Positions 21,001 to 24,000 of a DNA stretch of 64,000 nt are shown here, piece after piece (positions within the stretch are counted from its first letter, which is position 1; every line of letters starts with the position of its first letter). The stretch comes from a plasmid. The DNA lies in the sequence record NZ_LC532224.1; one strand, written 5' to 3'. Position numbers: made by a program.

Positions 21001-24000
21001 ATTTCCGTGTTCGCCATGAGGGTCTCAATCCTTTTAACTATCTTATTGATGGGCTGGAAAGGTTTTCGCATCACAGCGAATCTAGTAACTCACTGGAATC
21101 GACTGATGTATCTCACCAATACGATGAAATTAGCCGGTTAAATGTTCACCATGCACTTCATGCTTCTGGTTTAGTTCCTCAGGATGTTCACCTCTTTGTT
21201 ACTTTACCACTTAGCCAGTTCTATACTGCTTTAGGGGAAACGAATATTGAAAATATTCAGAGAAAAAAAGATAATCTGATGAAACCAGTAGAGCGTTATC
21301 TTGACGGTAAACGCTATTCTTTTAACGTTTTGTCTGTGACTGTTTTCCCTGAATCTTTACCAGCTGTGACCCGGGCAGATGAAATTGAGGATATTGCTTC
21401 ATTTGAATCAAGTTTGGTAATTGATCTTGGTGGTACTACTCTTGATGTTGCAAGTATTACTGGGCAATTAGAACAGATTTCGAAAGTAAAAGGTTTTGAC
21501 CGTATTGGTTGTTCTATTGTTTACGATGAGATCAGCAGGTATCTTGAATCTGAGAAACTGAATACGAGTAATGCTTACATTCATCATCTTGTTGATAATC
21601 GTCATGATAAATCAGCTTTGAAGGTTGCAGAGGACAAGCGTGACGGTGTTTTTGATGCGGTAAACTCTGCGGTACAGAAGTTGCAAAGTAAAGTAATCAG
21701 AGCGGTTACACAAGTCGAAGAGAGGCCTCATAATGTTTTCCTTGTTGGGGGAGGTTCATATCTCATCGAAACAGCTATTCGTAAACATTTTGAAACGGCT
21801 AAAGTTATCATGGTAGACAATCCGCAGTTCGCATTATCTTTGGCAATTGCTGATACTATTTATTCAGAATAATGAGCTAGAACATGGCTAAATACCCTAT
21901 CTCAAATAAGGCAGATAACGACCGGATTCAGATCCGGTCTTTCTGGATATCCGAAAGAAAAGCACCCTATGTTTATAGTTTCTTGAAAAAAACAGAACTT
22001 TGTCATAGGGGTGACCAACTGGATTTAATTAGGTCGGCTATTAGTACCGGGTTGGTATTAAATAATTTATTTCCTGACTTGGCAAATTTTATAAATGGTT
22101 TAAACGAAAGATTAACACTTGCAGATCTTAATAGGTTTCTGAATGATGGAAATACTATAGATACTGAACCTAAGCCTCCTATTAATGTATTGCTAGAGAA
22201 TGTCTTAGATCAAAAGTTTAAGGAGTATTTAACACCTCTACAATTAGATAATTCAAAGCAGGATTCTGTTTCTGTAAAAGAAACCTTCCTTGTACAAAAG
22301 GAACATGCCTGCTTTGGTGTGAAGATTGAAAATGAGGGAAGCGATACCTCTATACCATCTGAAAGCCCACTTTCTTCAGGTGCATGGCTTTGTTGAATAA
22401 ATCGAACTTTTGCTGAGTTGAAGGATCAGATCACGCATCTTCCCGACAACGCAGACCGTTCCGTGGCAAAGCAAAAGTTCAAAATCACCAACTGGCCCAC
22501 CTACAATAAAGCCCTCATCAACCGTGGCTCCATAACTTTCTGGCTGGATGATGAAGCTATTCAGGCCTGGTATGAGTCAGCAACACCTTCTTCACGAGGC
22601 AGACCTCAGCGCTATTCTGACCTTGCCATCACGACTGTGCTGGTCATTAAACGCGTATTCAGGCTGACCCTGCGCGCTGCGCAGGGCTTTATTGATTCCA
22701 TTTTTTCTCTGATGAACGTTCCGCTACGCTGCCCGGATTACAGCTGTGTCAGCAGGCGGGCAAAGTCGGTTAATGTCAGTTTCAAAACGCCCACCCGGGG
22801 TGAAATCGCACACCTGGTAATTGATTCCACCGGGCTGAAGGTCTTCGGTGAAGGCGAGTGGAAAGTCAAAAAGCATGGCCAGGAACGCCGCCGTATCTGG
22901 CGTAAGCTGCATCTCGCCGTTGACAGTAAAACACATGAAATCATCTGCGCTGACCTGTCGCTGAACAACGTTACGGACTCAGAGGCCTTCCCCGGGTTAA
23001 TCCGGCAAACCCACCGGAAAATCAGGTCAGCCGCCGCCGATGGCGCTTACGATACCCGGCTATGTCACGATGAACTGCGGCGTAAGAAAATCAGCGCGCT
23101 TATCCCTCCCCGAAAAGGTGCGGGTTACTGGCCCGGTGAATATGCAGACCGTAACCGTGCAGTGGCTAATCAGCGAATGACCGGGAGTAATGCGCGGTGG
23201 AAATGGACAACAGATTACAACCGTCGCTCGATAGCGGAAACGGCGATGTACCGGGTAAAACAGCTGTTCGGGGGTTCACTGACGCTGCGTGACTACGATG
23301 GTCAGGTTGCGGAGGCTATGGCCCTGGTACGAGCGCTGAACAAAATGACGAAAGCAGGTATGCCTGAAAGCGTGCGTATTGCCTGAAAACACAACCCGCT
23401 ACGGGGGAGACTTACCCGAAATCTGATTTATTCAACAAAGCCCAGGTGCATCCAAAATTTCAAAAGAAAAGTCCATTTCCTCTGTGGTGCCAGTGCTAGA
23501 AAAAGTATCGGATGAAAATCAAACCGCCTCCATAAGCATAAAATCTAAAGCTAAGGCAAACAAGCGACTAGCGACTTTGGCAAGATAGGTGAGAGACAGT
23601 ACAATCGACTTCTGAGTTCAACTTGTCTTACCAGGAAAGCCAGCATACTTGCTGGCCTTTTTTTTGTTATAATAAACTCAGGCTTCAGCTGAATCTGTAA
23701 AATTACTGTTAATGAAACGGTATTTTAGGTTAATTTGGATGCTGTTACAGGAAGTGCGGATTTTTCCTAAATTTGTAAAAAACCTAAGAATTATCTTAAT
23801 AAATCTGGTACTTAATTATTATTTTACGTAAAAAGTCTTTGTGGTTTAATGGTTATGTAAGGATTTTTTGATACCCTTATACCCGATGGACTTAAGGTCA
23901 CTGACAACGATGTTCATGTAGAATCTTCGTTTCTGTAATCCCTTTTGTCCTTGTCCCAAATGATTGATTATTATAATAAAGGCTGATCGAATGCTATCTC

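What the first reader, a model, noticed from the sequence alone, without database searches (positions are those of the whole stretch)
22377..23451. IS903 inserted into the 3' end of parR with a perfect 9-bp duplication
CAGGTGCAT is present at 22377-22385 and 23443-23451, flanking a 1057-bp IS903. The parR frame runs into the IS, where three IS-derived codons are followed by a stop. It resumes after the duplication for ~45 more codons and ends at an intact hairpin/T9 terminator at 23638-23666. This looks like a recent simple insertion that removes the C-terminal tail of the type II partition adaptor. In the ParMRC paradigm that tail contacts ParM, so the Par2 system is probably crippled. The plasmid would then rely on the parAB module and the repeat array.
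Basis: partly seen in the sequence, partly recalled or inferred. Interest (0 to 1): 0.55.

Follow-up and report, generated by a model that had tools for sequence, protein, structure and literature searches.

The report
IS903B insertion truncating IncHI2 parR
A common 1057-bp jumping gene (IS903B) sits in the end of the parR partition gene of this IncHI2 resistance plasmid and cuts off the short conserved tail that most likely grips the ParM filament, but the same insertion is shared by about 190 sequenced plasmids and has been noted in papers, so it is real but ordinary.

Summary
A 1057-bp IS903B with perfect 18-bp terminal inverted repeats lies at 22386-23442. It is flanked by CAGGTGCAT at 22377-22385 and 23443-23451. 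Removing the IS and one repeat copy rebuilds the R478 sequence exactly.

The interrupted ORF follows parM directly. It is the IncHI2 counterpart of R27 ParR (41% identity). Intact it is 212 aa; here it is 167 native residues plus W-L-C. The 45 lost residues carry the only conserved element outside the N-terminal domain, an extreme C-terminal K-[KR]-A-N-x-x-L-A-x-L-A-[KR] motif. By analogy with R1 ParR, whose last 17 residues bind ParM, active Par2 segregation is probably lost (inferred, not tested).

The insertion is not private to this plasmid. 188 PLSDB plasmids from eight genera carry the identical junction, against 858 with the empty site. The truncated protein occurs on 859 public contigs. 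179 of the 188 are typed as conjugative, and one carrier (pGW1) has been shown to conjugate. parA and parB are intact, and the type I system is reported as R27's major stability determinant.

Published plasmid descriptions already mention this insertion. pK29 carries an independent IS903B insertion 21 bp further downstream. Verdict: already known, low interest.

The parts
20835..21872 (+). parM, actin-like partition ATPase, intact (345 aa)
   Evidence: Pfam StbA_N 1.1e-66 and ParM_N 1.8e-60. R1 ParM structures 1MWK/4A62 match at E about 3e-43. It is 80% identical to R27 ParM. There are no differences from R478 in this gene.
21884..22396 (+). Truncated parR ORF (170 aa): native codons 1-167 (21884-22384) followed by W-L-C and a stop read from the IS left end
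   Evidence: The R478 ORF at the same start runs to 22522, giving 212 aa. The restored protein is 41% identical to the ORF downstream of parM in R27 (E 2e-46). UniRef names the cluster members ParR.
22377..22385 (.). Left copy of the 9-bp target-site duplication CAGGTGCAT
   Evidence: The sequence is present once in the empty site of R478.
22386..23442 (+). IS903B (IS5 family), 1057 bp. IRL is 22386-22403, IRR is 23425-23442, and the transposase ORF is 22418-23386, co-oriented with parMR
   Evidence: NCBIfam transpos_IS5_2 at 6e-107 covers the full-length profile, and Pfam gives DDE_Tnp_1_5 and DDE_Tnp_1. PGAP annotates identical DNA in relatives as an IS903B family transposase.
23443..23451 (.). 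Right copy of the 9-bp target-site duplication CAGGTGCAT
23451..23588 (+). Orphaned 3' remnant of parR: codons 168-212 plus stop. It encodes the conserved C-terminal motif ...KSKAKANKRLATLAR
   Evidence: There is an in-frame stop just upstream inside the IS and no plausible start, so it is probably not expressed. The remnant has no differences from R478. Motif conservation is shown.
23639..23665 (+). Intrinsic terminator of the parMR operon: 7-bp G+C-rich stem, 4-nt loop, then C and T8
   Evidence: -15.6 kcal/mol, z = -3.3.
20759..20818 (+). Candidate parMR promoter/operator: TTGATA-17-TATAAA with flanking ACCAT...ATGGT inverted repeats. Inferred only. No R1-like iteron array was found
   Evidence: The blocks are conserved with the IncHI1 upstream region. 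The consensus promoter scan did not call this site.
15475..17729 (+). parA (15475-16728) and parB (16725-17729), the type I module (Par1), both intact. Context for tolerance of the parR truncation

Best explanation
Shown: one IS903B element transposed into codon 168 of the 212-codon parR gene of an R478-like IncHI2 plasmid and made a 9-bp duplication. All descendants of that plasmid inherited the insertion, and this window comes from one of them. The resulting ParR keeps residues 1-167, which hold the conserved N-terminal domain and most of the variable linker. It ends in three foreign residues. It lacks the last 45 residues, which include the conserved basic/hydrophobic extreme C-terminal motif. 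Inferred: in ParMRC systems the N-terminal domain of ParR binds the centromere/operator and the C-terminal peptide inserts into ParM at the filament end. The truncated protein should therefore still bind DNA and repress parMR, but it can no longer couple the plasmid to ParM filaments, so Par2 no longer segregates actively. The plasmid stays stable because the intact ParA/ParB module is the main stability determinant of IncHI plasmids. This is why the allele has spread through eight genera without visible penalty. The insertion is best seen as a tolerated, neutral or nearly neutral loss, not as a recent crippling event.
For: Insertion anatomy and the exact empty site are. The R478 ORF is 212 aa. 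The exact uninterrupted ancestor allele (Y4, C40) is on at least 1000 contigs and the truncated 170-aa form on 859. The identical left junction is in 188 PLSDB plasmids and the right junction in 187. These come from 8 genera and from hosts including humans, poultry, pigs, dogs, insects, water and food, and 179 are typed conjugative. The family alignment shows a conserved N-terminal ~90 aa, a variable linker and a conserved extreme C-terminus. L210 is invariant even in members of 24-35% identity. ParM is 80% identical between IncHI1 and IncHI2 while ParR is 41%, with the conservation concentrated in the N-domain and the tail. [quoted passage not shown] In the distant CorMR system a C-terminal peptide of the ParR homologue is also described as essential for binding the ParM homologue. 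In R27 the type I system is reported as the major and type II as the minor stability determinant (PMC4489591 citing Lawley & Taylor 2003). parA and parB are intact. The carrier pGW1 conjugates into E. coli J53.
Against: No binding or stability data exist for this ParR. The protein matches no Pfam or NCBIfam model, and the AlphaFold monomer model was poor (mean pLDDT 46.7). The assignment of N-domain to DNA binding and tail to ParM binding therefore rests on analogy and on the conservation pattern. The centromere of this module was not identified. Persistence of the allele could equally mean that the truncated protein still works.
Confidence: 0.78

Rival explanations
1. The truncated ParR still supports ParM-driven partition. 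The C-terminal 45 residues would be dispensable, or another part of ParR would contact ParM, so Par2 remains functional.
For: The allele persists in 188 complete plasmids and on 859 contigs. parM is intact with no differences from R478.
Against: The extreme C-terminal motif is the only conserved element outside the N-domain, even at 24-35% identity. In R1 and in CorMR the C-terminal peptide is the ParM-binding element. Intactness of parM is uninformative at more than 99.9% backbone identity.
Confidence: 0.1
2. Loss of the ParR tail is adaptive. Switching off ParM-driven movement while keeping ParR as a repressor would lower cost or remove interference with Par1 or conjugation, and this would have helped the mcr-9 IncHI2 sublineage spread.
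For: There are independent hits in the same small locus. pK29 has another IS903B 21 bp downstream with its own 9-bp duplication and 5 nucleotide differences. pUWI-H17.1 has a further IS903-like copy in the last codons of parM. The three sites match the published IS903 target motif only at 6, 5 and 3 of 10 positions, which is not unusual for this DNA. The allele is found in 188 of 1048 plasmids that hold the site.
Against: Three events among more than 1000 IS903-rich plasmids are what one expects for any dispensable gene. The pK29 and pUWI types are each rare. The frequency of the main allele can be explained by hitch-hiking with resistance genes. No fitness data exist.
Confidence: 0.08
3. The shared junction reflects repeated independent insertions at a hot spot, not one ancestral event.
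For: A second insertion lies only 21 bp away in pK29. The IS at the standard site in pUWI-H17.1 differs from the window copy at 11 positions.
Against: All 188 carriers have the same nucleotide position and orientation and at least 99% junction identity. The top relatives are 100% identical over 2866 bp including the IS. The site matches the target motif only moderately. The pUWI copy has lost its right flank and is probably a recombinant.
Confidence: 0.04

Closest known systems
parR::IS903B allele already present in published IncHI2 plasmids (pME-1a, pE1532-MCR, p505108-MDR, pGW1, pP10164-2)
   Same: Same element, site and orientation. [quoted passage not shown]
   Different: Nothing structural at this locus. 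Two of the papers place the IS after parR and so miss the truncation. In the passages read, none discusses the loss of the C-terminal motif.
R27 (IncHI1) Par2 module, ParM/ParR (Lawley & Taylor 2003)
   Same: Same gene order (metallophosphoesterase, then parM, parR and the transfer-repressor gene annotated hdtA/htdA). ParM is 80% and ParR 41% identical. The N-domain and C-terminal motif are shared. It is reported as functional but the minor stability determinant.
   Different: R27 ParR is intact (225 aa). The original paper was not available in the library, so its results are cited second-hand.
[quoted passage not shown]
   Same: ParM is a clear homologue (E about 5e-43). The adaptor gene lies directly downstream. 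The adaptor has a short C-terminal peptide after a variable linker. In R1 that peptide binds ParM between subdomains IA and IIA.
   Different: ParR here is 212 aa, much longer than the 130-aa StbB-type ParR used for comparison. It has only faint similarity to the StbB/ParR family: PF10784 at E 0.06 for the IncHI1 homologue and hhalign probability 9%. No array of ten 11-bp iterons was seen upstream of parM.
IS903 / IS903B (IS5 family)
   Same: 1057 bp, 18-bp terminal inverted repeats, 9-bp target duplication and a single DDE transposase. The 9-bp duplication is listed as typical of IS903.
   Different: No direct alignment to the ISfinder reference could be made. The variant name rests on PGAP annotation of identical DNA and on the literature. 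The copy is 100% identical to the IS903B next to mcr-9 in the same window.

Membership tests
IS903 group, IS5 family insertion sequence | Length about 1057 bp with 18-bp terminal inverted repeats | tested here: met
   22386-23442 is 1057 bp, and the first and last 18 nt are perfectly complementary.
IS903 group, IS5 family insertion sequence | 9-bp direct target-site duplication, with a single copy in the empty site | tested here: met
   CAGGTGCAT flanks the element on both sides. The reconstructed empty site matches R478 and 857 other plasmids. A 9-bp duplication is listed for IS903 in PMC2577343.
IS903 group, IS5 family insertion sequence | One intact DDE transposase of the IS5 type | tested here: met
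   ORF 22418-23386. NCBIfam NF033579 at 6.2e-107 covers profile positions 1-289 of 289. Pfam gives DDE_Tnp_1_5 and DDE_Tnp_1.
IS903 group, IS5 family insertion sequence | Near-identity to the named reference IS903B | tested here: inconclusive
   No ISfinder reference was available. Identical DNA is annotated by PGAP as 'IS5-like element IS903B family transposase'. Papers call the element at this site IS903B or IS903D.
Type II (ParMRC) plasmid partition system | Actin-like ATPase ParM | tested here: met
   Pfam StbA_N and ParM_N. R1 ParM structures match at E 2.7e-43.
Type II (ParMRC) plasmid partition system | Adaptor gene parR immediately downstream of parM, homologous to a characterised ParR | tested here: met
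   The ORF starts 11 nt after the parM stop. The restored protein is 41% identical (E 2e-46) to the ORF at the same position in R27. UniRef names cluster members ParR.
Type II (ParMRC) plasmid partition system | Ribbon-helix-helix DNA-binding N-terminal domain in ParR | tested here: inconclusive
   No Pfam or NCBIfam hit for the IncHI2 protein. PF10784 Plasmid_stab_B gives E 0.06, below cutoff, for the IncHI1 homologue. hhalign against a StbB-type ParR gives E 0.0034 and probability 9% in the same register. The PDB profile search was empty. The AlphaFold monomer had pLDDT 46.7.
Type II (ParMRC) plasmid partition system | C-terminal ParR peptide that binds ParM | not testable with these tools
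   Only conservation could be tested. A K-[KR]-A-N-x-x-L-A-x-L-A-[KR] motif sits at the extreme C-terminus across the family, and L210 is invariant. Binding is inferred from R1 and CorR.
Type II (ParMRC) plasmid partition system | parC centromere of repeated ParR sites next to the operon | tested here: inconclusive
   No iteron array lies in 20400-20900. Only short inverted repeats occur around a candidate promoter, partly conserved with IncHI1.
Type II (ParMRC) plasmid partition system | Demonstrated stabilisation of a plasmid | not testable with these tools
   Reported for R27 Par2 as the minor determinant (second-hand citations). No data were found for IncHI2 or for the truncated allele.

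The most novel reading that the evidence does not exclude
Removal of the ParR tail is selected, not just tolerated. IS903 elements have independently hit the parM-3'/parR segment at least three times in IncHI2 plasmids. The main allele marks a globally successful sublineage, of which this window's plasmid and some relatives carry mcr-9. A tail-less ParR that still represses parMR and occupies its DNA site, but no longer engages ParM, might lower cost or remove interference between the two partition systems or with conjugation.
Probability: 0.07. Interest if true: 0.5.

Novelty: already known. Interest (0 to 1): 0.18.

Why it matters
The practical value is small. The junction is a clean lineage marker for a widespread IncHI2 sublineage, and the plasmid in this window also carries mcr-9. 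It also corrects some published maps that place the IS 'between parR and htdA' when it in fact truncates parR. Biologically it is a ready-made natural deletion of the presumed ParM-binding tail. It shows that very large, low-copy IncHI2 plasmids persist and spread with only the ParAB module fully intact. This agrees with the older R27 result that the type II module is the minor stability determinant. It does not open a new question.

Tried and rejected
1. Pfam and NCBIfam scans of the restored 212-aa protein found no family.
2. A PDB profile search with the family alignment gave only chance hits, GlmU and a designed protein.
3. AlphaFold2 of the full-length monomer with a 17-sequence alignment gave mean pLDDT 46.7 and pTM 0.21. 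This was too poor for a fold search, so none was run. ParR proteins are obligate dimers, which probably explains the poor model.
4. A ParM-ParR-tail complex prediction was not attempted.
5. The exhaustive profile search found only 14 family representatives among 1.84 billion proteins. This is a small IncHI-centred family with no bridge to StbB/ParR.
6. A repeat search upstream of parM for an R1-like parC iteron array found nothing convincing.
7. The published IS903 target motif (WTTYA-N9-TRAAW) was tested as an explanation for the clustered insertions. The sites score 6, 5 and 3 of 10, and better sites in parMR are unused.
8. The original R27 partition paper (PMC154067) is not held in the library.
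9. A search for the window's own htdK|IS1 junction in PLSDB found no match, so the exact source record was not identified.
10. An assembly artefact was considered and rejected. The same junctions occur in 188 independent complete assemblies.

Full report
**Observation.** The region was read directly and checked by script.
- CAGGTGCAT occurs on the + strand of the window only at 22377-22385 and 23443-23451.
- The 1057 bp between these copies (22386-23442) begin and end with perfectly complementary 18-bp inverted repeats (GGCTTTGTTGAATAAATC).
- The segment contains one long ORF (22418-23386). It matches the IS5-family transposase model NF033579 over the full profile (6e-107) and the Pfam DDE_Tnp_1_5 and DDE_Tnp_1 domains.
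- The decisive test was the empty site. A 120-nt sequence built by removing the IS and one repeat copy matches the IncHI2 prototype R478 at 100% over its whole length, at the same coordinates. It matches 858 PLSDB plasmids at 80% coverage or more. The 9-bp repeat is therefore a true target-site duplication.
Its stem is 23639-23656, and it folds at -15.6 kcal/mol with z = -3.3.
- PGAP and the literature call this element IS903B.

**What was hit.**
- The ORF at 21884 starts 11 nt after the stop of parM (20835-21872).
- ParM is unambiguous. Pfam gives StbA_N and ParM_N, and R1 ParM structures match at E about 3e-43.
- In R478 the downstream ORF runs from 21884 to 22522, giving 212 aa. In the window it reads 167 native residues, then W-L-C and a stop supplied by the IS left end.
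- The frame resumes at 23451 for exactly 45 codons, with a stop at 23586-23588. An in-frame stop inside the IS right end lies just upstream and there is no obvious start, so the remnant is probably silent.
- The restored protein has no Pfam or NCBIfam match.
- It is 41% identical (E 2e-46) to the 225-aa ORF at the same position in R27, whose ParM is 80% identical. UniRef names members of its cluster ParR. IncHI2 papers call the pair parM-parR.
- Similarity to the StbB/ParR Pfam family is only faint. PF10784 gives E 0.06 for the IncHI1 homologue. hhalign gives E 0.0034 and probability 9%, in the same register.

**What is lost.**
- Alignments of the family show a strongly conserved N-terminal ~90 residues, a non-conserved linker of variable length, and a conserved extreme C-terminus, K-[KR]-A-N-x-x-L-A-x-L-A-[KR] (17 sequences; 11 sequences reaching 24-35% identity).
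- L210 is invariant in the wider set. The exhaustive profile search found only 14 representatives in 1.84 billion proteins.
- The IS cuts the gene inside the linker and removes the C-terminal motif.
- In R1 the C-terminal 17 residues of ParR are the part crystallised with ParM. They bind between subdomains IA and IIA (PDB 4A62; PMC3794156).
- In the distant CorMR system a C-terminal peptide of the ParR homologue is likewise described as essential for binding the ParM homologue.
- Inference, not tested here: the truncated protein keeps DNA binding and autorepression but cannot attach the plasmid to ParM filaments.

**How common it is.**
- With an E-value cut-off that admits only full junction matches, 188 PLSDB plasmids carry the left junction and 187 the right one.
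- By genus: Enterobacter 127, Escherichia 17, Salmonella 15 (14 for the right junction), Citrobacter 10, Klebsiella 8, Leclercia 6, Raoultella 4, Cronobacter 1.
- 179 of the 188 are typed as conjugative.
- Sources include patients, poultry, pigs, a dog, an insect, surface water and food.
- By exact-sequence look-up the truncated 170-aa protein is on 859 contigs. Its exact uninterrupted ancestor allele (Y4, C40) is on at least 1000 contigs, and the R478 allele (N4, S40) is on 999.
- The closest relatives are 100% identical over 2866 bp including the IS. pGW1 differs at 2 positions inside the IS.
- The simplest reading is a single ancestral insertion inherited by a widely disseminated sublineage. 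It is not a recent event of this plasmid.

**Tolerance.**
- parA (15475-16728) and parB (16725-17729) are intact.
- For R27 the type I module is reported as the major and the type II module as the minor stability determinant (PMC4489591 citing Lawley & Taylor 2003).
- pGW1 carries the same truncated protein and was reported to transfer by conjugation into E. coli J53 (PMC12542685). The insertion therefore does not by itself block transfer, contrary to suggestions in two plasmid descriptions.

**Independent events in the same locus.**
- pK29 (NC_010870.1) has a 1057-bp IS903B in the same orientation, 99.5% identical with 5 differences. It is inserted after R478 nt 22406 with its own 9-bp duplication AAGAAAAGT. 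This is 21 bp downstream of the window's site and leaves a 177-aa ORF.
- pUWI-H17.1 (CP065860.1) has an additional IS903-like copy in the last codons of parM (duplication 21847-21855), plus a rearranged copy at the standard site.
- The three sites match the published IS903 target motif WTTYA-N9-TRAAW at only 6, 5 and 3 of 10 positions. Such scores are common in this DNA, and better-scoring sites in parMR are unused.
- Three events among more than a thousand IS903-rich plasmids fit a dispensable target. They do not demonstrate selection.

**Prior knowledge.**
[quoted passage not shown] They appear to treat the truncated ORF as the whole gene.
- No paper found discusses the lost C-terminal motif or measures the stability of this allele.

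**Verdict.**
It is wrong in implying a recent, private event, and the functional part is untested.
- The feature is an ordinary, already recorded IS insertion and a lineage marker.
- Its mild interest is as a natural tail-less ParR. It shows that IncHI2 plasmids spread well without a complete Par2.

Noticed in passing
window 25432-31849: Colinearity with R478 ends at 25431, just after the 'plasmid transfer protein' gene (htdK-like). An IS1 left end starts at 25432. It is followed by an IS26-like ORF, wbuC, mcr-9 (27688-29343, - strand), a second IS903B and pcoS. rsp, trhF and the rest of Tra2 are not found anywhere in the 64-kb window. The backbone|IS1 junction has no match in PLSDB. This looks like a private IS1-mediated rearrangement (inversion?) that splits Tra2 and brings the mcr-9/pco region next to it.
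   Followed up: partly
window 29440-30496 (- strand): A second IS903B copy, 100% identical to the parR copy, lies between mcr-9 and pcoS in the usual mcr-9 context. It has no 9-bp direct repeat (flanks ...CCTTAACGA / GCGGTGATG...). The identity suggests that one copy seeded the other or that they were homogenised.
   Followed up: partly
window 12516-13544 and 13974-15095: Two arrays of 249-bp tandem repeats (4.1 and 4.5 copies, 87% and 78% matches) lie upstream of parA.
   Followed up: no
window 21893 and 22002: The only two differences from R478 across 20472-22385 are both non-synonymous changes in parR (N4Y, S40C). parM has none. The same Y4/C40 allele exists uninterrupted on at least 1000 contigs, so the changes predate the insertion and are not decay after it.
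   Followed up: yes
L009 (pK29 NC_010870.1) 3082-4138; L010 (pUWI-H17.1 CP065860.1) 1465-2521 and 3061-4117: Independent IS903-type insertions occur in the same locus of other IncHI2 plasmids. One lies 21 bp downstream in parR (own duplication AAGAAAAGT). One lies in the last codons of parM (duplication TTGCTGATA). None of the sites fits the published IS903 target motif well.
   Followed up: partly
window 20759-20818: A candidate parMR promoter (TTGATA-17-TATAAA) is bracketed by ACCAT...ATGGT-type inverted repeats (TAATAGGTCACCATTA / TAATATGGTCCTATTA). It is partly conserved in the IncHI1 upstream region and may be the ParR operator. No iteron-type parC was seen.
   Followed up: partly
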